Shown: positions 4,222 through 35,378, numbered from the stretch's first letter. The stretch is DNA of 37,561 nucleotides from an uncultured Actinomycetes bacterium (GCA_903918325.1 CAIXDY010000035.1:1-37561), one strand, 5' to 3'. Notes: generated from the sequence alone by a model not told the origin. A program made the numbers and translations.

Positions 4222-4256
4222 TTTTCTCTAGGCGACACGCTCGCGCACTTGCCATT

Positions 4257-4278
4257 TGTCAGCCCAAGGGGCTATTTT
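4257..4278 (+). promoter_or_regulatory. RecA-NDp / PafBC-dependent promoter
   Basis: TGTCAG-CCCAAGGGGC-TATTTT matches TGTCRG-N10-TANNNT with exact spacing. Confidence 0.75.
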
Positions 4279-4294
4279 TCGAACATCTGTTCGA
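4279..4294. promoter_or_regulatory. LexA (SOS) box, actinobacterial type
   Basis: TCGAAC-ATCT-GTTCGA is a perfect match to TCGAAC-N4-GTTCGA and covers the expected transcription start upstream of an error-prone polymerase operon. Confidence 0.93.
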
Positions 4295-4326
4295 ATACCC
4301 ACAGCCTCAGAAAGGCGCCCGCCGCA

Positions 4327-4608
4327 ATGTCAGTCCCACAGGTCAATCCCGCCCACGACGTAACAATCGATGGTGCAACAACACCTATTGAGTTCACTTT
4401 TAAGGGTCGACGCTTTCGCATTCATGCAGTTTTATCCAGGTGGTGCGAAGCAGGTGGTTGGTGGAATCGCATTAGCGATGGCAAGTACAGACCTGATGAT
4501 CAAGCCCGGGCTTTGTGGCGTGTAGAAGCTGCACCCATTGGGGCGTTAACAACTTTTGAATTAGAACGCGATGAACTTAGCGGTCAGTGGATTATCCGTA
4601 ACGTATGA
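4327..4608 (+). CDS. Small DUF6504-like protein (93 aa), putative DnaE2 accessory factor
   Basis: True start is probably ATG 4327 (AGAAAGG RBS at 4309-4315, downstream of the SOS box). Pattern P-x-x-F-x-F-x-GRRFRIxxVLxRW-x-E-x-G-x-WW...WRVEA...FEL...W. Its stop overlaps the dnaE2 start (ATGA). Confidence 0.75.
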   Translation: MSVPQVNPAHDVTIDGATTPIEFTFKGRRFRIHAVLSRWCEAGGWWNRISDGKYRPDDQARALWRVEAAPIGALTTFELERDELSGQWIIRNV

Positions 4609-7600
4609 GCTTTATTCATTTAAATGTTGCTAGTGCCTATTCACTCAAATACGGAACAACACAACCTGCTGATTTAGTAGAACGTGCTGCCGAATTTGAA
4701 ATGCCCGCACTGGCATTAACTGATCGCGATGGTCTAGCTGGTGCTATTCGTTTTGCCCAAAGCTGCGTTGATTTCGGTATCGCTCCCATTATCGGAGTGA
4801 ACCTGGCAGTTGATATGGGCGGGGCAAATAATCGCATCACATTGTTAGCACATAGCGATGGGGGATGGCGCTCGCTCTGTCGATTACTGACCAGCCTTGC
4901 AATGACTAGTGATAATCGCAACCCAGCACTGACACTTGAATTCTTACAACGTTTTAACCATTACAGCACCAACATCTATGCCCTACACGGTCCGCAATCT
5001 ATGGTCGGTTCATTGATTACCGATAATCGAATCGATGCCGCCTTTACGGCCTTTAATCTCATGCGCGATTTATTTGCCGGTAATGCCATTGAATGTGTAT
5101 CGCACTTAGTTGCCGGCAAAGGCCCACGCTCCACTTCTCACGCAGCTAAATCACTTATTTTTGCCCGTGACCACGATATAGATGCAGTCATTACCAATGC
5201 CGTGCGAATGCGAGATCGCACCGATGGGCCAGTAGCCGATGTTTTAGATTGCGCTCGCCAATTAGTGCCCCTACATCCGCGCCATGTTGAACGGCGCAAT
5301 GCTGAAGGTTTTTTAAAATCTAGCGATGAAATGATTTCGCTAGCCGCAGAAATTGCACGGGCTGCGGGGGAGCGAACTCCGCGGCAACTACTTGCAACAA
5401 CGCGTGCCTGGGCTGAACGTTGTTTGCTATCGCCGCAACGCGATATTGGTTTAGGTGGAGCGCATCTACCCGAAGCACATGTAGTGGGCGTTGATTCAGC
5501 CCATGAAATGCGGGTATTGCTACGTACACGCAGTGAAGCTGCAATTAACTGGCGCTATAGCGATAGCGCAACAATTAAAAAAGTGCGCACACGTTTAGAT
5601 GATGAACTATCAACAGTTGCAACGTTGGGTTTTGAATCATATTTTTTAACCGTTGCCGATATCTGTGACATGGCACGGGGCGCTGGTATCCGGGTAGCGG
5701 CCCGAGGCAGTGGTGCAGGTTCATTAATCTGTCATTTGCTCGGAATATCTGGTGTTGAACCATTACAACACGGTCTCTTGATGGAGCGCTTTTGTTCACC
5801 GTTGCGTCGAGCATTGCCAGATATCGATATCGATGTTGAATCACATCGCCGTCTTGAAATCTACGACATGGTTTTTAAACGTTATGGAAATAGCGAGTGG
5901 GATACACCAGGAAATCAATCACGGTGTGCCACCGTTGCAATGGTTGATACATACCGGGCCCGGCATGCAATTCGTGATGCAGGTGCTGCTCTGGGCTTAC
6001 CCAGCATGGAGATCGACATGTTAGCTAAATCCATGCCGCATGTGCGTGCCCGCAATATCTCTAAAACCTTAGAGAACCTGCCCGAACTTCGTTCTCTCAA
6101 TATCTCTGCGCCACTGACTGCAATGACAATTGCATTAGCAGAGCGGCTCGATGGTCTGCCACGTCATTTATCGATGCACCCGTGTGCCATTGTTTTATCT
6201 GATGGGGGATTACTCGATCGCACGCCCTTGTTATCAAATGCCAGCGGTTATCCCATGGTGGTCTTTGATAAAGATGATGTCGAAGCAATTGGTTTATTAA
6301 AACTTGATGTCTTAGGTGTGCGCATGCAGTCGGCGATTTCATATGCCGTAGCCGAAATAGCGCGCACCGAAGAAAAGAGCGTTGATATTGATTCAGTACC
6401 TTTAGATGACCCCGATACATATTCACTGATTCAATCCACCAATACCTTGGGTTTATTTCAAATTGAATCTCCTGGACAGCGCGAATTAATTGGAAAGTTA
6501 GAGCCAAGAACATTTACTGATTTAATTATTGATATCTCACTCTTTCGCCCCGGCCCAGTTAAATCCGACATGATCACCCCTTTTCTTAAAGCCCGCCACG
6601 GCTGGGCAAAGGCGCAAATCATTCACCCTGATCTCTATGAAATTCTGCGCGATACCGAAGGCGTTGTTGTTTTCCATGAACAGGTTATTGAAATCATTGC
6701 AACCATGACTGGCTCTTCCTTAGCTAGCGCTGACGAAAAACGACGAGCGTTGGGGGATAAAGCGGGTCAACAAGAAGTCTGTGACTGGTTTTTTCCTGCA
6801 GCGACGGCGCGCGGTTATGAGCTAGCAATTATTAACCAAATCTGGGAAGTCTTGCGGGCCTTTGCATCCTTTGGTTTTTGCAAAGCGCATGCTGCAGCTT
6901 TTGCGTTGCCTACATATCAATCAGCTTGGTTAAAAACGCATTACCCAGCAGCATTTTTAGCGGGTGTACTGACTCATGACCCTGGCATGTACCCCAAACG
7001 TTTAATCGTCGATGAAGTGCGGCAAATGGGATTAACCGTTGCACCCCTTGATATCAATGAATCTGATGCGGTGTATCGGGTTGAAGATAAGGGTCAATCA
7101 ATTCGTATCGCACTTTCTACGCTTGCCAAGATTAGTGATGCTGAAATCGCATCGATTATCGCGGGCCGTCCATATATAGATCTCACTGATTTTGTACGCC
7201 GGGCTGGTTGCAGTGCACCAGTTACCGAGAGTGCAATTCTTACTGGCGCTTTTGATCGTTTGCACACCGAAGTTAATCGCCGTGATTTACTGTTGCATTT
7301 TTCTGATCTACAAAAGTCTCCTAGTGCTGGCGTCACTGGCGCCCAAATGAATTTAGCTTTTCCCGCCCCCGTATTAATCAGCAGCGGTTTGCCAGATATG
7401 ACACCGGCCGAAAGTGTTAAACATGAAATCGAGCGGTTGGGAATGGATATGTCGGCCCACATGATTGAGTTTTATAGCGATTTCCTTAACGCTATAGGTG
7501 CGGTGCGTTCGGCAGATTTATTATCTCAACGCTCGCGCTCATCAGTTTTAGTTGCCGGAATAAAAGTTGCCATGCAAACACCTCCAGTACGCAGCGGTAA

Positions 7601-7832
7601 GCGGGTTATCTTCGTAACTCTTGATGATGGATACGGTTGTAGTGATTCAACATTTTTTACCGATACCCAAGCCGACTATGCCAACACGCTCTATTCCTCA
7701 TCTCTGCTACTGATTCGTGGCATTACTCGACGCACGGGCGCACGGGGTATTTCATTACGAGCAACAGGTGCGTGGGATCTGCGCGCGGCCTATGAAAGTT
7801 GGCGCACAAAAGAAAGTACGCTGGCAATATGA
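4605..7832 (+). CDS. dnaE2: Error-prone C-family DNA polymerase DnaE2 (variant without the SRDFH tail)
   Basis: RGSGAGS, PDIDIDVE, LLKLDVLG and GFCKAHAAAFA are present. PHP metal ligands are degenerate (HLNVAS, TDRD, TNAVR). A second dnaE copy is in the window and this one is LexA-controlled. Confidence 0.92.
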   Translation: MSFIHLNVASAYSLKYGTTQPADLVERAAEFEMPALALTDRDGLAGAIRFAQSCVDFGIAPIIGVNLAVDMGGANNRITLLAHSDGGWRSLCRLLTSLAMTSDNRNPALTLEFLQRFNHYSTNIYALHGPQSMVGSLITDNRIDAAFTAFNLMRDLFAGNAIECVSHLVAGKGPRSTSHAAKSLIFARDHDIDAVITNAVRMRDRTDGPVADVLDCARQLVPLHPRHVERRNAEGFLKSSDEMISLAAEIARAAGERTPRQLLATTRAWAERCLLSPQRDIGLGGAHLPEAHVVGVDSAHEMRVLLRTRSEAAINWRYSDSATIKKVRTRLDDELSTVATLGFESYFLTVADICDMARGAGIRVAARGSGAGSLICHLLGISGVEPLQHGLLMERFCSPLRRALPDIDIDVESHRRLEIYDMVFKRYGNSEWDTPGNQSRCATVAMVDTYRARHAIRDAGAALGLPSMEIDMLAKSMPHVRARNISKTLENLPELRSLNISAPLTAMTIALAERLDGLPRHLSMHPCAIVLSDGGLLDRTPLLSNASGYPMVVFDKDDVEAIGLLKLDVLGVRMQSAISYAVAEIARTEEKSVDIDSVPLDDPDTYSLIQSTNTLGLFQIESPGQRELIGKLEPRTFTDLIIDISLFRPGPVKSDMITPFLKARHGWAKAQIIHPDLYEILRDTEGVVVFHEQVIEIIATMTGSSLASADEKRRALGDKAGQQEVCDWFFPAATARGYELAIINQIWEVLRAFASFGFCKAHAAAFALPTYQSAWLKTHYPAAFLAGVLTHDPGMYPKRLIVDEVRQMGLTVAPLDINESDAVYRVEDKGQSIRIALSTLAKISDAEIASIIAGRPYIDLTDFVRRAGCSAPVTESAILTGAFDRLHTEVNRRDLLLHFSDLQKSPSAGVTGAQMNLAFPAPVLISSGLPDMTPAESVKHEIERLGMDMSAHMIEFYSDFLNAIGAVRSADLLSQRSRSSVLVAGIKVAMQTPPVRSGKRVIFVTLDDGYGCSDSTFFTDTQADYANTLYSSSLLLIRGITRRTGARGISLRATGAWDLRAAYESWRTKESTLAI

Positions 7833-9019
7833 GTGAAGAGGTCACTGCCCAAGCAACGATCCTTCATGTTGATATGGATGCATTTTTTGCATCAGTTGCC
7901 GAGCGCGATAATCCAGAGTTAAAAGGTAAGGCCGTAGTTATCGGTATGGGCGCACGTGGCGTTGTATCGGCGGCAAACTATGAAGCCCGCAAATTTGGTA
8001 TTCACTCGGCAATGCCGGTGGGCCGCGCACGTCGCTTAGCACCACATGCAATTTTCTTGCCAGTTGATATGCCGCGCTATCAAGAAGTCTCCGAACATGT
8101 CATGGAAATCTTCCAAAGCTTTACGCCATGGGTAGAACCGATTTCATTAGATGAGGCTTTTTTAGATGTAACTGGTTCGCAAAAATTACTGGGGACTGGC
8201 CGCGAAATTGCTGCAGCGATTCGCAAGAAAGTAGAGGATCAAGAGGGCATCACGTGTTCAGTAGGAATTGCACCTTCTAAGTTCATTGCAAAGTTAGCTT
8301 CGGCGCACTGCAAACCAAATGGAATGTTAGAGATAACTGCCGATCGCATTCTTACTTTTTTACATCCATTGCCGATTCAAGCAATGTGGGGAGTGGGGCC
8401 TAAAACCGCTGAAGTACTTGAACGGCTTGGTCTTCGCACCATTGAAGATATTGCAAAGCTACCTCGGACAACATTAATTCGCGCTTTAGGTGAAGCTAAT
8501 GGAGCCTCGTTGTATGAACTGGCATGGGGGCGCGATTACCGGGATGTAACACCGGAAGAGCCCGATCGCAGTATCAGCGCCGCTGAAACTTTTCCGCAAG
8601 ATTTAGATAACCCAGAAGAGATCCTTACCGAATTTTTGCGGCTGACAGAACGCGCTACTGCCAGATTGCGCGACCGTGAATTATTTGCAAAGACAATAAG
8701 CATCAAAGTGCGCTTTGCTGACTTCTCAACAATTAATCGCAGCAAAACTTTGCCGCTACCAATTGACAGTACTCACGATGTGTATGACGTAGTACGCCAG
8801 CTCTACCAAGCACTTCGCATCGAGAAAGCCAGACTTCGTTTAGTGGGAGTGTCACTGGAGAATTTGAGCCACGGTGCACCTGTGCAGTTAGTGCTCGGCG
8901 AGCGCGAAATAGGGTGGCGACAAGCTGAAGGAGCTATGGATAAGGCCCGTGCGCGCTTTGGACGCGGAAGTGTGCGCCCAGCCCGCCTGATAAAGAGCAG
9001 TGAAGAGGATGAGGATTAG
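7829..9019 (+). CDS. dinB: DNA polymerase IV (Y family), catalytic residues intact
   Basis: HVDMDAFFASV, SAANYEARKFG, SLDEAFLD and the little-finger motif RLVGV. Start at ATG 7829 overlaps the dnaE2 stop (ATGA). Confidence 0.93.
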   Translation: MSEEVTAQATILHVDMDAFFASVAERDNPELKGKAVVIGMGARGVVSAANYEARKFGIHSAMPVGRARRLAPHAIFLPVDMPRYQEVSEHVMEIFQSFTPWVEPISLDEAFLDVTGSQKLLGTGREIAAAIRKKVEDQEGITCSVGIAPSKFIAKLASAHCKPNGMLEITADRILTFLHPLPIQAMWGVGPKTAEVLERLGLRTIEDIAKLPRTTLIRALGEANGASLYELAWGRDYRDVTPEEPDRSISAAETFPQDLDNPEEILTEFLRLTERATARLRDRELFAKTISIKVRFADFSTINRSKTLPLPIDSTHDVYDVVRQLYQALRIEKARLRLVGVSLENLSHGAPVQLVLGEREIGWRQAEGAMDKARARFGRGSVRPARLIKSSEEDED

Positions 9020-9063
9020 TTTTTAAGTAGCCAGAGCGCATGTCTGTGTTCTATTGTTGGCCC

Positions 9064-9405
9064 ATGCCGTTGTCAGATCACGAAAAGCGAATGCTTCAAG
9101 AGATGGAAGCTGCCCTCATGACTGAGGATCCACGCTTAGTTTCTGCCCTTTCCGGGGATGCTAAGCCTTTAGGTCGTAACCGCATTCTCCTTGGCCTAGC
9201 TCTTATTGTTCTCGGCATCGTTGTTCTCTTTGGCGGCCTTATTGCAAAGCTGACACCAGTTGGCGTTCTCGGTTTCATCATCGCGCTAGGTGGGGTAATC
9301 ACAGCTATCTCTTCCATGGGACGGCCGTCATTGCCCAAGGGCAAGGGTGGATCAAAGCTCGGCGCTCGCATGGAACAACGGTGGGATAAGCGCAATAACC
9401 AGTAA
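9064..9405 (+). CDS. DUF3040 family small membrane protein
   Basis: MPLSDHEKRMLQEMEAALMTEDP, two TM helices and a C-terminal RMEQRWDKR; usual position upstream of actinobacterial mraZ. Start at ATG 9064. Confidence 0.85.
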   Translation: MPLSDHEKRMLQEMEAALMTEDPRLVSALSGDAKPLGRNRILLGLALIVLGIVVLFGGLIAKLTPVGVLGFIIALGGVITAISSMGRPSLPKGKGGSKLGARMEQRWDKRNNQ

Positions 9406-9427
9406 ATAGTTCGTAGGTTTCACATCC

Positions 9428-9453
9428 AGGGCTCCCGAAAGGGGGCCCTTTTT
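9428..9453 (+). terminator. Rho-independent terminator
   Basis: GGGCTCCC-GAAA-GGGGGCCC stem with a GNRA loop, followed by TTTTT. Confidence 0.88.
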
Positions 9454-31880: not shown

Positions 31881-34800
31881 ATGTCTGAGAAAAACTTCGT
31901 ACACCTTCACGTTCACACCGAGTATTCGATGCTCGATGGTGCAGCGCGGGTTCCAGATTTAATGGCCGAGGTTGCACGCCAAGAAATGCCAGCTATTGCA
32001 ATGACCGATCATGGAAATGTTTTCGGAGCTTATGAATTTTATAAGCAAGCAAAAAAAGTTGGTGTTAAACCAATTATTGGAATTGAAGCCTATGTCGCGC
32101 CTGAATCACGTTTTGATAAAAAGCGTGTGCAATGGGCAAGCGGTGGCGAAGACGACGTCTCTGGTGGTGGCGCATACACGCACATGACGATCTTGGCTGA
32201 AAATAATGTTGGTCTTGGAAATCTTTTTCGCCTCTCATCCCTTGCCTCACTTGAAGGTTATTACTACAAACCGCGAATGGATCGCGAACTTTTATCCAAG
32301 TATGCAACTGGATTAATCGCAACAACGGGTTGCCCGGGCGGCGAAATTCAAACTCGTTTGCGCATGGGGGCATACAAAGAAGCCATTAAGGCAGCAAGTG
32401 ATTACCGCGATATTTTTGGCGAAGGCAATTTCTATCTTGAAGTAATGGACCATGGAATCGAGATTGAAAGCCGAGTCAAAAGTGATCTACTCAAGCTAGG
32501 CAAAGAACTTGGTTTACCGTTGCTGGCAACAAATGATCTTCACTACACATTGCAATCAGATGCTGGTGCACATGAAGCGTTATTGTGCGTTCAGTCTGGT
32601 TCGACGCTAGCGGATCCTAAGCGCTTCAAGTTTGATAACGATTCTTTCTACGTAAAAACCGCGGCCCAAATGCGCGAACTATTCAAAGAGATTCCTGAAA
32701 GCTGCGATAACACCTTGCTCATTGCCCAACGCTGCGATGTAACAATGCGCGAAGGCGAAAACTTGTTGCCACAATTCACGGTACCAGCCGGTGAGACTGA
32801 AGATTCATGGCTAAAGAAAGAAGCCATCACCGGAATGAAAAACCGTTTAGGTGCAAAACTCACCCCAACACATGAAGCCCGATTGGAATATGAACTGGGC
32901 GTAATGGAAAAGATGGGATTTCCGGGTTACTTCCTTGTAGTTGCCGACTTAGTTGGACACGCAAAAAAAGTTGGAATTCGTGTTGGTCCAGGCCGTGGTT
33001 CGGCGGCCGGTTCCCTTGTTGCATATTCACTTGGTATTACTGGTCTTGATCCACTCGAACATGGTTTGTTGTTTGAGCGCTTCTTAAATCCAGAACGTAT
33101 TTCAATGCCCGATATTGATCTAGATTTCGACGAACGCCGTCGCAGCGAAATGATTCGTTATGCCACCAATAAATATGGTGAAGACCGAGTCGCGCAGATC
33201 ATTACTTACGGAACTATTAAATCTAAACAAGCCATCAAGGATTCAACACGAGTACTCGGTTATCCATACGTTATTGGTGAAAAACTTACTAAGGCATTAC
33301 CACCATCAGTAATGGGTAAAGATATTTCTTTAGGGGGAGTCTTTGATCCAAAAGATGATCGATACGGTGAAGCGGGAGAATTTCGCTCACTGTATGAATC
33401 TGATCCTGATTCAAAGCGGGTAGTAGATACTGCGCGAGGATTGGAAGGCCTCAAGCGTCAATGGGGTGTTCACGCTGCCGGTGTAATTCTTTCGCGTGAA
33501 CCGTTGTTAGATGTAATTCCAATCCATAGACGTGAAGCCGACGGCGCAATCATTACCCAGTTTGATATGGGAGCTTGTGAATCAATTGGCCTACTCAAGA
33601 TGGACTTTTTGGGCCTTCGAAACCTTTCCGTTCTAGATGATGCACTTATTAATATCAAGGAAAATCAAGGCATTGAAGTTGTGCTTGAAGATTTAACCCT
33701 TGATGATAAAAAAACTTATGAACTCTTATCGCGCGGTGACACATTAGGCGTATTCCAACTCGATGGTGGGCCTATGCGCGCACTGCTGAAGTCAATGTCG
33801 CCCGACTCTTTCGAAGATATTTCAGCGGTTATCGCGCTTTATCGTCCGGGACCAATGGGTGAAAATGCTCATAATAACTATGCCGATCGAAAAAATAATC
33901 GTAAACCGGTCGAACCAATTCACCCAGAATTATCTGAACCTTTGCAGGAAATTTTGGGCGATACGTATGGACTCATTGTTTACCAAGAGCAGGTAATGGC
34001 AATTGCACAAAAAGTTGCTGGTTTCTCCCTTGGTCGCGCAGATCTGCTGCGTAAAGCTATGGGTAAGAAAAATAAAGATATTTTGGACAAGGAATACATT
34101 CCTTTCGAGGCTGGCATGCAAGCAAATGGATTTTCAACTGCAGCAATAAAGCGCCTCTGGGATGTTTTGATTCCATTCTCAGATTACGCATTCAACCGTG
34201 CGCACTCTGCAGGTTATGGCGTGGTCTCTTATTGGACGGCATATCTAAAAGCTAACTATCCAACGGAGTACATGGCAGCGTTGCTAACAAGTGTTCGCGA
34301 TGACAAAGATAAGTCAGCCTTGTATTTGAGTGAGTGTCGCCGCATGGGTATTAAGGTTTTGCCACCAGATGTCAATGAGTCCAATGGTGAATATACCCCG
34401 CGCGAAAAAGATATCCGTTTTGGTTTAGCGGCAATCCGAAATGTTGGCGAAGGTGTTGTTGCTTCAATTAAAGCTTCACGCGAAAATAAGGGTCGTTTCA
34501 CTTCTTTTGGTGATTTCTTAGCCAAAGTAGATGCGCAAGTGTGCAATAAGAAAACAATTGAATCCCTGATTAAAGCTGGAGCATTTGGTTCACTCGGTGC
34601 AACACGTAAAGGTTTGGTGGCTATCCATTTAGAAGCAATTGACTCGGTCATTGAAAGTAAGCGGGCTGAAGCCATTGGCCAATTTGATCTTTTTGGTGGC
34701 GAGGCAGTTACCGAACTCTCTGGTTTGGATATTGAAATCCCAGCAGGTGAGTGGGATAAATCAATGCTGCTCAGTTATGAGCGCGAAATGTTAGGCCTAT

Positions 34801-35378
34801 ATGTATCGGATCATCCACTGCTTGGTGTCGAACATGTCTTGCGTGCAAACACGGATATGTCCATCAGTGAATTAGTTGATGAAGGTGCTCAGCATGAATC
34901 AATTGTCACAATTGGTGGCTTAATCACAAGTGTTACACGCAAAGTTTCCAGACAGGGTGCATCGTGGGCAGTAGTCACCGTTGAAGATCTTGAAGGTTCC
35001 CTTGAAGTTCTATTTTTCTCTAATACCTACAACCAATACTCAATGTCACTAACTGAAGATCGAATTGTCACTGTGAGAGGTCGCGTAGATCGTCGCGAAG
35101 AGAATTTGCGTTTCACCGCACTTGAAATGTCGATGCCTGACATTTCCGCCGGCCCAACTGGACCGCTAGTTATTTCATTGCCAATGTCGCAGTGCACACC
35201 ACCAGTTGTTGATCGGATTAAAGAGATTTTGAGATCGCACCCAGGAAAACGTGAAGTTCATCTTTCACTTGGTGAAAACGGAAGCAATACCGTGATGAAA
35301 ATTGATGCATCCGTCACAGCATCACCATCGTTGAGCGCGGATCTTAAATCTATTCTTGGCCCTAACTGCCTCGTATAA
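31881..35378 (+). CDS. dnaE1: Replicative DNA polymerase III alpha subunit with intact PHP proofreading site
   Basis: HLHVHTEYSMLDG, TDHGN, GIE, YTH, TGC and NDLHY (PHP ligands); GRGSAAGS, PDIDLDF and KMD; clamp motif QFDLF; no intein seen. Confidence 0.97.
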   Translation: MSEKNFVHLHVHTEYSMLDGAARVPDLMAEVARQEMPAIAMTDHGNVFGAYEFYKQAKKVGVKPIIGIEAYVAPESRFDKKRVQWASGGEDDVSGGGAYTHMTILAENNVGLGNLFRLSSLASLEGYYYKPRMDRELLSKYATGLIATTGCPGGEIQTRLRMGAYKEAIKAASDYRDIFGEGNFYLEVMDHGIEIESRVKSDLLKLGKELGLPLLATNDLHYTLQSDAGAHEALLCVQSGSTLADPKRFKFDNDSFYVKTAAQMRELFKEIPESCDNTLLIAQRCDVTMREGENLLPQFTVPAGETEDSWLKKEAITGMKNRLGAKLTPTHEARLEYELGVMEKMGFPGYFLVVADLVGHAKKVGIRVGPGRGSAAGSLVAYSLGITGLDPLEHGLLFERFLNPERISMPDIDLDFDERRRSEMIRYATNKYGEDRVAQIITYGTIKSKQAIKDSTRVLGYPYVIGEKLTKALPPSVMGKDISLGGVFDPKDDRYGEAGEFRSLYESDPDSKRVVDTARGLEGLKRQWGVHAAGVILSREPLLDVIPIHRREADGAIITQFDMGACESIGLLKMDFLGLRNLSVLDDALINIKENQGIEVVLEDLTLDDKKTYELLSRGDTLGVFQLDGGPMRALLKSMSPDSFEDISAVIALYRPGPMGENAHNNYADRKNNRKPVEPIHPELSEPLQEILGDTYGLIVYQEQVMAIAQKVAGFSLGRADLLRKAMGKKNKDILDKEYIPFEAGMQANGFSTAAIKRLWDVLIPFSDYAFNRAHSAGYGVVSYWTAYLKANYPTEYMAALLTSVRDDKDKSALYLSECRRMGIKVLPPDVNESNGEYTPREKDIRFGLAAIRNVGEGVVASIKASRENKGRFTSFGDFLAKVDAQVCNKKTIESLIKAGAFGSLGATRKGLVAIHLEAIDSVIESKRAEAIGQFDLFGGEAVTELSGLDIEIPAGEWDKSMLLSYEREMLGLYVSDHPLLGVEHVLRANTDMSISELVDEGAQHESIVTIGGLITSVTRKVSRQGASWAVVTVEDLEGSLEVLFFSNTYNQYSMSLTEDRIVTVRGRVDRREENLRFTALEMSMPDISAGPTGPLVISLPMSQCTPPVVDRIKEILRSHPGKREVHLSLGENGSNTVMKIDASVTASPSLSADLKSILGPNCLV

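What the first reader, a model, noticed from the sequence alone, without database searches (positions are those of the whole stretch)
4257..9019. ImuA/ImuB-free damage-inducible cassette: DUF6504-like ORF + DnaE2 + active DinB
Seen: three genes chained by ATGA overlaps (4605-4608, 7829-7832) behind one SOS box. DnaE2 keeps its catalytic Asp residues but has a degenerate PHP site and lacks the C-terminal SRDFH tail. The Y-family partner keeps DMDAFF and SLDE. Known: the canonical mutasome is ImuA'-ImuB-DnaE2, where the catalytically dead ImuB supplies clamp binding and a DnaE2-binding C-terminus. Inference: here those jobs may be split among a 93-aa adaptor, a clamp-binding DnaE2 and an active DinB, forming an alternative two-polymerase translesion system. 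Similar gene orders exist in other actinobacteria, but I know of no mechanistic characterisation. Caveat: dinB may also have its own promoter (TACGCT, 7817-7822).
Basis: partly seen in the sequence, partly recalled or inferred. Interest (0 to 1): 0.78.

Follow-up and report, generated by a model that had tools for sequence, protein, structure and literature searches.

The report
SOS-controlled split-ImuB polymerase operon
This is a three-gene cluster behind a DNA-damage (SOS) repressor site that likely encodes an error-prone DNA-copying system of a kind already catalogued by computation in 2026, here in a stripped-down form in a small-genome freshwater actinobacterium.

Summary
An SOS box (4279-4294), the same motif that precedes recA and lexA, fronts three ATGA-coupled genes: DUF6504 (93 aa), dnaE2 and dinB, both polymerases with intact catalytic residues. 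The cluster is not wholly ImuB-free: DUF6504 is a free-standing ImuB C-terminal domain (ImuB-C; hhalign 93% to ImuB tails). The DinB tail carries a clamp-type motif and a RecA-NT-like motif, and an ImuB-C/DnaE2-PHP model scores 0.65 against a best control of 0.19. This matches the DnaE2B-PolY-[ImuB-C]-RecA module predicted in PMC12926913 (2026); I found no experimental test of it. The scan found this cassette before on other DNA (e1-5206443 and at least 24 genomes). Additions here: the HEPN gene and leader motif of soil relatives were not found in 121 genomes and 90 loci of this family; dinB likely has its own leaderless promoter; and closed relatives show dinB moved away, ImuB-C plus dnaE2 missing together, or ImuB-C missing alone. 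The parts are therefore modular, and an obligate two-polymerase complex is unproven. Verdict: new member of a known, untested kind.

The parts
4249..4278 (+). Promoter-like site: -35 TTGCCA (4249-4254), 18 nt, -10 TATTTT (4273-4278), directly abutting the SOS box
   Evidence: 1 found, 0.6 expected in shuffles, so weak alone; the same layout is seen by eye in related loci
4279..4294 (.). SOS (LexA) box TCGAACATCTGTTCGA
   Evidence: same core upstream of recA and lexA of this genome; present in 79 of 79 related loci
4327..4608 (+). DUF6504 = standalone ImuB-C, 93 aa, predicted all-beta; W39, W45, W46, W64 and W88 invariant in 43 homologues; residues 37-46 form the predicted DnaE2 interface
4605..7832 (+). 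dnaE2, DnaE2B-type, 1075 aa: degenerate PHP, catalytic D406/D408/D568, (HhH)2, OB, no SRDF tail
7344..7361 (+). DnaE2 clamp-type motif QMNLAF (aa 914-919), aligned with QFDLF of DnaE1
   Evidence: binding is inferred
7817..7822 (+). TACGCT, likely the -10 element of a leaderless dinB promoter, 6 nt before the ATG and inside the dnaE2 3' end
   Evidence: no transcript data
7829..9019 (+). dinB, Y-family polymerase IV with intact DMDAFF (aa 15) and SLDE (aa 106), 396 aa; NCBIfam PRK03858, 384 bits against a cut-off of 367
8885..8896 (+). DinB clamp-type motif QLVL (aa 353-356)
   Evidence: Q in at least 90% of 25 tails; binding is inferred
8906..8989 (+). DinB RecA-NT-like motif (helix, then RFGxGSV)
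   Evidence: best non-self domain among 1205 long segments of the genome is the RecA N-terminus (8.6 bits, i-E 0.092; next 4.1)
9428..9449 (+). First terminator-like hairpin on the + strand after dinB; it lies beyond the DUF3040 gene (9040-9405), which may be co-transcribed
   Evidence: 3 sites found, 2.4 expected in shuffles

Best explanation
[quoted passage not shown] Shown here: the box, the coupled genes, the intact catalytic residues, the ImuB-C homology and the failure to find imuA or full-length imuB. Inferred: LexA cleavage after DNA damage frees the promoter; ImuB-C docks on the metal-less PHP domain and licenses DnaE2; RecA takes the place of ImuA on the DinB tail; DinB and DnaE2 share the clamp, DinB inserting across lesions and DnaE2 extending without proofreading. 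DinB is likely also made at a basal, LexA-independent level from its own leaderless promoter, so the ImuB-C/DnaE2 pair is the induced core and DinB a semi-independent partner.
For: Regulation: box shared with recA and lexA and kept in 79 of 79 loci. ImuB-C identity: PF20114 hits the last ~75 aa of 5 of 6 proteobacterial ImuB proteins (E 2e-4 to 0.16, below cut-off) and, above cut-off, the 80-aa D. deserti protein between imuY and dnaE2 that PMC8072749 calls ImuB-C. hhalign of a 75-sequence profile built without ImuB against 6 ImuB C-termini gives 93.3%, E 2.8e-7, with four controls below 1%. Complex model: 0.65 against a best control of 0.19; the mark was reached by 116 of 157 solved and 2 of 215 mismatched pairs; runs agree in at least 92% of contacts, partner pLDDT at least 66; the interface includes invariant W39 and W45. 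It is the same PHP/ImuB-C contact that PMC12926913 models for the mycobacterial mutasome. RecA-NT. Tree: this DnaE2 groups with Streptomyces and Arthrobacter DnaE2, apart from 9 ImuAB-linked DnaE2, Deinococcus DnaE2 and DnaE1 (support 0.999). No second Y-family gene above cut-off in 121 family genomes. dinB promoter: TANNNT 5-7 nt before a start codon in 57 of 76 unique upstream sequences (53 of 53 closest kin) against 143 of 7987 background codons.
Against: No transcript, binding or mutagenesis data exist for this locus. The RecA-NT match is weak (i-E 0.092); a narrower profile missed RecA and a PDB search with the tail profile found no RecA chain. hhalign against 4 actinobacterial ImuB tails alone gave only 2.5%. 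The DnaE2-DinB contact was not modelled here. Among 18 single-contig relatives, dinB lies far from dnaE2 in 2 and one keeps dnaE2-dinB with no ImuB-C found. In S. coelicolor the related DnaE2 was not needed for UV resistance or mutagenesis (PMC3273824). The assembly is 88% complete in 200 contigs.
Confidence: 0.75

Rival explanations
1. Two independent modules are co-regulated by gene order only: an ImuB-C/DnaE2B pair and a DinB-RecA pair that do not form one complex. The ImuB-C/dnaE2 unit sits upstream of a resident dinB that has its own promoter.
For: dinB is far from dnaE2 in closed genomes G001 and G019, and is kept in G035 where neither ImuB-C nor dnaE2 was found. No GAAC-N4-GTTC box was found near these three detached dinB genes. 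Likely internal promoter. DnaE2B with ImuB-C alone occurs in Arthrobacter (PMC12926913).
Against: The three genes stay together in 14 of 18 single-contig family genomes and 60 of 60 close loci. A DinB homologue also follows within about 1.5 kb in 12 of 15 more distant class stretches fetched around DUF6504. PMC12926913 reports four-protein AlphaFold-Multimer models at ipTM 0.84 in 5 species.
Confidence: 0.35
2. One obligate four-protein mutasome (ImuB-C, DnaE2B, DinB, RecA) in which DinB serves mainly as a scaffold, like ImuB, and only DnaE2 makes the mutations.
For: The parts add up to those of ImuA-ImuB-DnaE2. In D. deserti both ImuY (predicted inactive) and DnaE2 are needed for UV mutagenesis (PMC8072749). 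Translational coupling at both junctions.
Against: DinB catalytic motifs are invariant in 58 of 58 close homologues and kept in detached copies; DinB survives where dnaE2 was not found (G035).
Confidence: 0.15
3. DnaE2B/ImuB-C does damage-induced gap filling or restart synthesis rather than mutagenic bypass, and DinB accounts for the mutagenesis.
For: S. coelicolor dnaE2 is UV-induced yet dispensable for UV resistance and mutagenesis, whereas dinB1 and dinB2 contribute (PMC3273824). This DnaE2 groups with the Streptomyces type.
Against: The Streptomyces system lacks ImuB-C (PMC6511836). The PHP proofreading site is degenerate here. DnaE2 with ImuB-C is needed for mutagenesis in D. deserti, though that DnaE2 falls in another branch.
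Confidence: 0.15

Closest known systems
DnaE2B-PolY-[ImuB-C]-RecA putative mutasome of Actinobacteria (PMC12926913, NAR 2026; representative Tessaracoccus lapidicaptus VEP41449-41451; sections 14, 20, 22, 23, passages and supplement parts 1-2 read)
   Same: Standalone ImuB-C, DnaE2 outside the ImuAB-linked branch, apparently active PolY with a RecA-NT-like tail, no imuA/imuB found. The representative's accessions are consecutive in the order ImuB-C, DnaE2, PolY.
   Different: Here in genomes of about 1-2 Mb, whereas that paper finds DnaE2 typically in fairly large genomes. The SOS box, ATGA coupling and dinB promoter are not described in the parts I read. Its DnaE2 table rows were cut from the held supplement, so I could not see how it classed the 6 Planktophila and 3 Nanopelagicus genomes in its dataset.
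Standalone ImuB-C domain (PMC3765255, 2013; PMC6511836, 2019; passages read, and section 17 of the latter)
   Same: Small all-beta tryptophan-rich domain next to DinB and/or DnaE2 in SOS operons; RecA proposed to replace ImuA.
   Different: In the passages read, the 2013 and 2019 papers list ImuB-C with an active PolY without DnaE2, or with DnaE2 and an inactive PolY or none; the active-PolY plus DnaE2 plus ImuB-C type is named in the 2026 paper. The string 'DUF6504' occurs in 0 papers searched.
[quoted passage not shown]
   Same: SOS-controlled, no imuA, standalone DUF6504/ImuB-C directly before dnaE2.
   Different: ImuY is predicted inactive and lies upstream; lexA is in the operon; its DnaE2 falls in another branch; imuY and dnaE2 have been tested genetically.
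Streptomyces dnaE2-dinB2 operon (PMC3273824, passages read)
   Same: SOS box, dnaE2-dinB order with an ATGA overlap, same broad DnaE2 branch; UV induction was shown there.
   Different: No ImuB-C; DinB2 is classed as inactive (PMC6511836); dnaE2 deletion had no UV phenotype.
Canonical ImuA'-ImuB-DnaE2 mutasome (M. tuberculosis, Caulobacter, Pseudomonas)
   Same: SOS-induced DnaE2 with dead PHP; the modules Y-polymerase body, clamp motif, RecA-NT and ImuB-C are all present.
   Different: No ImuA or full-length ImuB found; the Y-polymerase keeps its catalytic residues; ImuB-C is a separate protein; DnaE2 lacks the SRDF tail and sits in another clade.

Membership tests
DnaE2B-PolY-[ImuB-C]-RecA module | [quoted passage not shown] | tested here: met
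   PF20114 above cut-off; PF20114 on ImuB tails and on D. deserti ImuB-C; hhalign 93.3% with controls below 1%. Weak (2.5%) against actinobacterial ImuB tails alone.
DnaE2B-PolY-[ImuB-C]-RecA module | DnaE2 of the DnaE2B branch with intact polymerase site | tested here: met
   Three Asp invariant in 62 of 62; groups with Streptomyces and Arthrobacter DnaE2, split support 0.999 on 271 columns of 42 sequences
DnaE2B-PolY-[ImuB-C]-RecA module | Placement in the same DnaE2B subgroup as the Tessaracoccus representative | not tested
   VEP41450 was not fetched; the paper's DnaE2 rows are cut from the held supplement
DnaE2B-PolY-[ImuB-C]-RecA module | Apparently active Y-family polymerase | tested here: met
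   DMDAF and S[LVI]DE in 58 of 58; PRK03858 above cut-off; sequence only
DnaE2B-PolY-[ImuB-C]-RecA module | RecA-NT motif in the PolY tail | tested here: inconclusive
   The RecA N-terminus is the top non-self hit among 1205 segments, but i-E 0.092; missed; position and pattern fit the published description
DnaE2B-PolY-[ImuB-C]-RecA module | No imuA or imuB in the genome | tested here: met
   7 ImuA-like and 7 ImuB queries hit only dinB in G000 (88% complete); an ImuB query finds at most one match of 28% identity or less in each of 41 genus genomes, at the dinB position where cross-checked; an ImuA' profile over 4 closed relatives gave 2 weak hits, one checked and found to be RecA
DnaE2B-PolY-[ImuB-C]-RecA module | ImuB-C contacts the DnaE2 PHP domain | tested here: met
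   Model only: 0.65 against best control 0.19; mark reached by 116 of 157 solved and 2 of 215 mismatched pairs
DnaE2B-PolY-[ImuB-C]-RecA module | All four proteins form one complex that makes damage-induced mutations | not testable with these tools
   Needs biochemistry and genetics; the full complex exceeds the 1000-residue limit
Canonical ImuA-ImuB-DnaE2 mutasome | imuA and full-length, catalytically dead imuB | tested here: not met
Canonical ImuA-ImuB-DnaE2 mutasome | DnaE2 of the ImuAB-linked (DnaE2A) clade, usually with an SRDF[H/R] tail | tested here: not met
   outside the ImuAB-linked clade; SRDF in 0 of 61
Streptomyces DnaE2B-iPolY-RecA | Inactive PolY partner and no ImuB-C | tested here: not met
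   DinB catalytic motifs intact and ImuB-C present
LexA (SOS) regulon, actinobacterial type | CGAAC-N4-GTTCG operator at the promoter, shared with recA and lexA | tested here: met
   induction itself not measured

The most novel reading that the evidence does not exclude
The smallest freshwater actinobacteria keep a minimal two-active-polymerase mutasome as one of about three LexA-boxed loci: a basally made DinB-RecA unit is switched, on SOS induction, into a hand-off machine by ImuB-C/DnaE2B, with both polymerases on the clamp. The family's natural variants (dinB detached, ImuB-C missing, ImuB-C plus dnaE2 missing, HEPN gene and leader motif missing) would then map which parts of this untested system are core.
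Probability: 0.3. Interest if true: 0.55.

Novelty: new member of a known kind. Interest (0 to 1): 0.27.

Why it matters
The system type is predicted but, in the papers I could search, untested, and the function of ImuB-C and of DnaE2B is open. This copy is the simplest version seen here: three coupled genes, one SOS box, no HEPN gene, no leader motif. That makes it a convenient object for reconstitution. It also shows that genomes of 1-2 Mb keep DnaE2 (115 of 121 family genomes), against the reported trend toward large genomes, which bears on stress-induced mutation in abundant lake bacteria. It does not add a new kind of system.

Tried and rejected
Novel adaptor unrelated to ImuB: rejected. 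Small ORF starting at TTG 4207 (133 aa): rejected, because that frame runs across the promoter and SOS box, and close homologues align from the ATG at 4327. Fold search of the 93-aa model (pLDDT 77.7): no Foldseek match at E 0.001 or better; best VIA Z 5.8, cystatin-like, within background; uninformative, though in line with the paper's 'no close PDB structure'. RecA-NT tests that failed: narrow profile, PDB search, and no PF13438 hit at E 0.01. Loss of the ImuB-C interface in DnaE2 of relatives without ImuB-C: no clear pattern by eye, inconclusive. No solved DnaE2 or mutasome structure was among the 9 PDB hits. Literature searches with no result: 'DUF6504', 'Planktophila'+'DnaE2', 'Nanopelagicales'+'SOS'+'error-prone'+'polymerase'; 'standalone ImuB-C' gave 2 papers; one search listed no deletion study of a standalone ImuB-C (listing only). 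Most subscription papers are outside this library. The ESM Atlas returned DUF6504 clusters and one unnamed cluster.

Full report
Source and observation. The window is contig C35 of a 1.23-Mb, 200-contig assembly, 88% complete, 45.6% GC. Where its closest loci carry a genus name it is mostly Ca. Planktophila, and others are titled Nanopelagicaceae. The box TCGAACATCTGTTCGA (4279-4294) abuts a promoter-like -10. The exact core occurs 5 times in the assembly; three copies are upstream of this operon, recA and lexA, and two are inside ORFs. In the 80 closest loci (of 344 confirmed) the box is in 79 of 79, dnaE2 is adjacent in 77 of 77 and dinB in 60 of 60 loci with enough sequence. A separate replicative dnaE1 lies at 31881-35378.

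The small ORF is ImuB-C. It scores above cut-off for PF20114. The same model rang in the Caulobacter control genome, hit the last ~75 residues of 5 of 6 proteobacterial ImuB proteins below cut-off, and hit above cut-off the 80-aa D. deserti protein between imuY and dnaE2, which PMC8072749 names ImuB-C (passages). A 75-sequence profile built without ImuB matched 6 ImuB tails at 93.3% (E 2.8e-7), with three other windows and reversed tails below 1%. Against 4 actinobacterial ImuB tails alone it gave 2.5%, and against all ten 90.7%. The AlphaFold model is all-beta (pLDDT 77.7). The complex with DnaE2 1-300 scored 0.65 against a best control of 0.19; the mark was reached by 116 of 157 solved and 2 of 215 mismatched pairs (counts hold only roughly with my own alignments), runs agreed in at least 92% of contacts and partner pLDDT was at least 66. 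The interface joins residues 37-46, including invariant W39 and W45, to PHP residues 167-178 and 205-234. This supports binding and does not show it.

The polymerases. DnaE2 keeps D406/D408/D568 in 62 of 62 sequences, has degenerate PHP motifs, lacks SRDF in 61 of 61 homologues, and has Q[ML]N[LI]xF at the position of the DnaE1 clamp motif. PMC3919608 describes the SRDF tail and non-canonical clamp motifs in DnaE2 (passages). On 271 core columns of 42 sequences it groups with Streptomyces and Arthrobacter DnaE2, apart from ImuAB-linked DnaE2, Deinococcus DnaE2 and DnaE1 (support 0.999). DinB passes PRK03858 and keeps its catalytic motifs in 58 of 58. Its tail has QLVL followed by a helix and RFGxGSV. 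A profile of 27 tails ranks the RecA N-terminus first among 1205 long segments of the genome after DinB itself, but weakly (8.6 bits, i-E 0.092); two other tests missed RecA.

No ImuA or full ImuB found. G000 has one PF00817 match, and 14 ImuA-like and ImuB queries hit only dinB (the ImuA' labels of the actinobacterial queries rest on gene position). In 121 family genomes, 116 have a Y-family match and none has a second gene above cut-off: G016 has a sub-cut-off hit and G117 two overlapping pieces at one place. An actinobacterial ImuB query gave at most one weak match in each of 41 genus genomes. An ImuA' profile found its control and two weak hits in 4 closed relatives; the one I checked is RecA.

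Distribution and modularity. PF20114 was found in 105 of 121 family genomes and 159 of 301 class genomes (the class tally includes unpublished G144 and G150, and no other claim rests on them). DnaE2 was found in 115 of 121. Of 18 single-contig family genomes, 14 have the full three-gene cluster. G001 and G019 have dinB hundreds of kb away, G035 has dinB but neither ImuB-C nor dnaE2, and G009 has dnaE2-dinB without ImuB-C. A family-level profile found no ImuB-C in G009, G035, G040 or G093 while finding the control G001. Genus g10 is 0 of 9 for PF20114 and has the box directly before dnaE2 in 5 of 6 loci fetched, the sixth ending at the contig edge. These are samples, and kin are not independent.

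dinB promoter. TANNNT stands 5-7 nt before an in-frame start in 57 of 76 unique upstream sequences (53 of 53 closest kin, 4 of 23 others, one of them masked), against 143 of 7987 ATG/GTG triplets inside dnaE2. The serine codon that supplies the first T is AGT in 60 of 61 dnaE2 ends, whereas AGT is 955 of 5222 serine codons in these genes and the serine position five codons upstream varies. This fits a leaderless promoter but is not a transcript map.

Stripped-down form. Earlier scan notes reported a HEPN gene and a leader hairpin in this operon in other actinobacteria. I checked both. The ImuB-C to dnaE2 gap is 425-750 nt in 28 of 28 class loci where both genes were seen (2 of 30 lacked dnaE2 in the stretch), and 9 of 10 gap ORFs scanned are PF18726 HEPN. 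PF18726 was found in 0 of 121 family genomes. A [CT]TCGACCC leader motif follows the box in 27 of 30 class loci and 0 of 90 family loci; I did not fold it.

What is known. PMC3765255 defined standalone ImuB-C (passages). PMC6511836 described ImuA-less variants with RecA-NT motifs (passages and section 17). [quoted passage not shown] Its dataset holds 6 Planktophila and 3 Nanopelagicus genomes, but the DnaE2 rows were cut from the held supplement, which bears on whether this lineage is already listed. PMC3273824 shows UV induction of Streptomyces dnaE2-dinB2 and no UV phenotype for dnaE2 loss (passages). The scan itself has an earlier report on the same cassette in another Planktophila genome and 25 notes in at least 24 genomes.

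Verdict. Real, conserved and correctly located; a new member of a kind predicted in print and, as far as searches show, not yet tested. The ImuB-C/DnaE2B pairing is the best-supported link. The RecA link rests on a weak motif match plus the published pattern. Whether DinB and DnaE2 act in one complex remains open.

Noticed in passing
L147-L149, L151, L152 (genus g10, e.g. G009:C1:1195800-1202600): SOS box directly before dnaE2, then an active dinB, with no ImuB-C found in the genomes searched. This would be an actinobacterial DnaE2B-PolY-RecA system, a type that PMC12926913 reports from Bacteroidetes.
   Followed up: partly
G001, G019, G035 (genus g2; L154-L158): dinB is detached from imuB-C-dnaE2 in two closed genomes and shows no SOS box nearby; a third closed genome keeps dinB while neither ImuB-C nor dnaE2 was found.
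   Followed up: partly
L159:1102-2741 (G066): A 1.6-kb insert with an AbiEii-like nucleotidyltransferase gene (PF08843) sits between imuB-C and dnaE2, and a second SOS box stands just before dnaE2.
   Followed up: partly
L094-L123 (class loci): A PF18726 HEPN gene between imuB-C and dnaE2 and a TCGACCC-containing leader motif are common in other actinobacteria and were not found in this family; earlier scan notes reported both.
   Followed up: partly
L153 (G040:C1:84800-91200): dnaE2-dinB with neither an SOS box nor ImuB-C in the stretch, although DnaE2 keeps interface-like residues; possibly a recent loss.
   Followed up: partly
G000:C160:46-1157: Two boxes (413 exact, 475 with one mismatch) lie between lexA and a divergent gene for a small protein with a LysM-like C-terminus (judged by eye), resembling SOS cell-division inhibitors (recalled). 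With recA and this operon these are the only exact promoter boxes in the assembly.
   Followed up: no
window 9040-9449 and 9596 onward: A DUF3040 gene follows dinB before the first terminator-like hairpin; mraZ and what appears to be the cell-division cluster come next, and dnaE1 lies 23 kb downstream in the same contig.
   Followed up: no
L124 (NZ_CP110115.1) and L125 (NZ_CP108868.1): Plasmid-borne relatives of this DnaE2: with DUF6504 and an SRAP gene in Arthrobacter, and next to a Ku gene in Streptomyces; most of the top 40 plasmid hits are from Streptomyces.
   Followed up: no
L172-L177, L180, L183, L186: DnaE2 of several soil-type actinobacteria carries long low-complexity insertions at the clamp-motif position that are absent from the compact 1075-aa protein here.
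   Followed up: no
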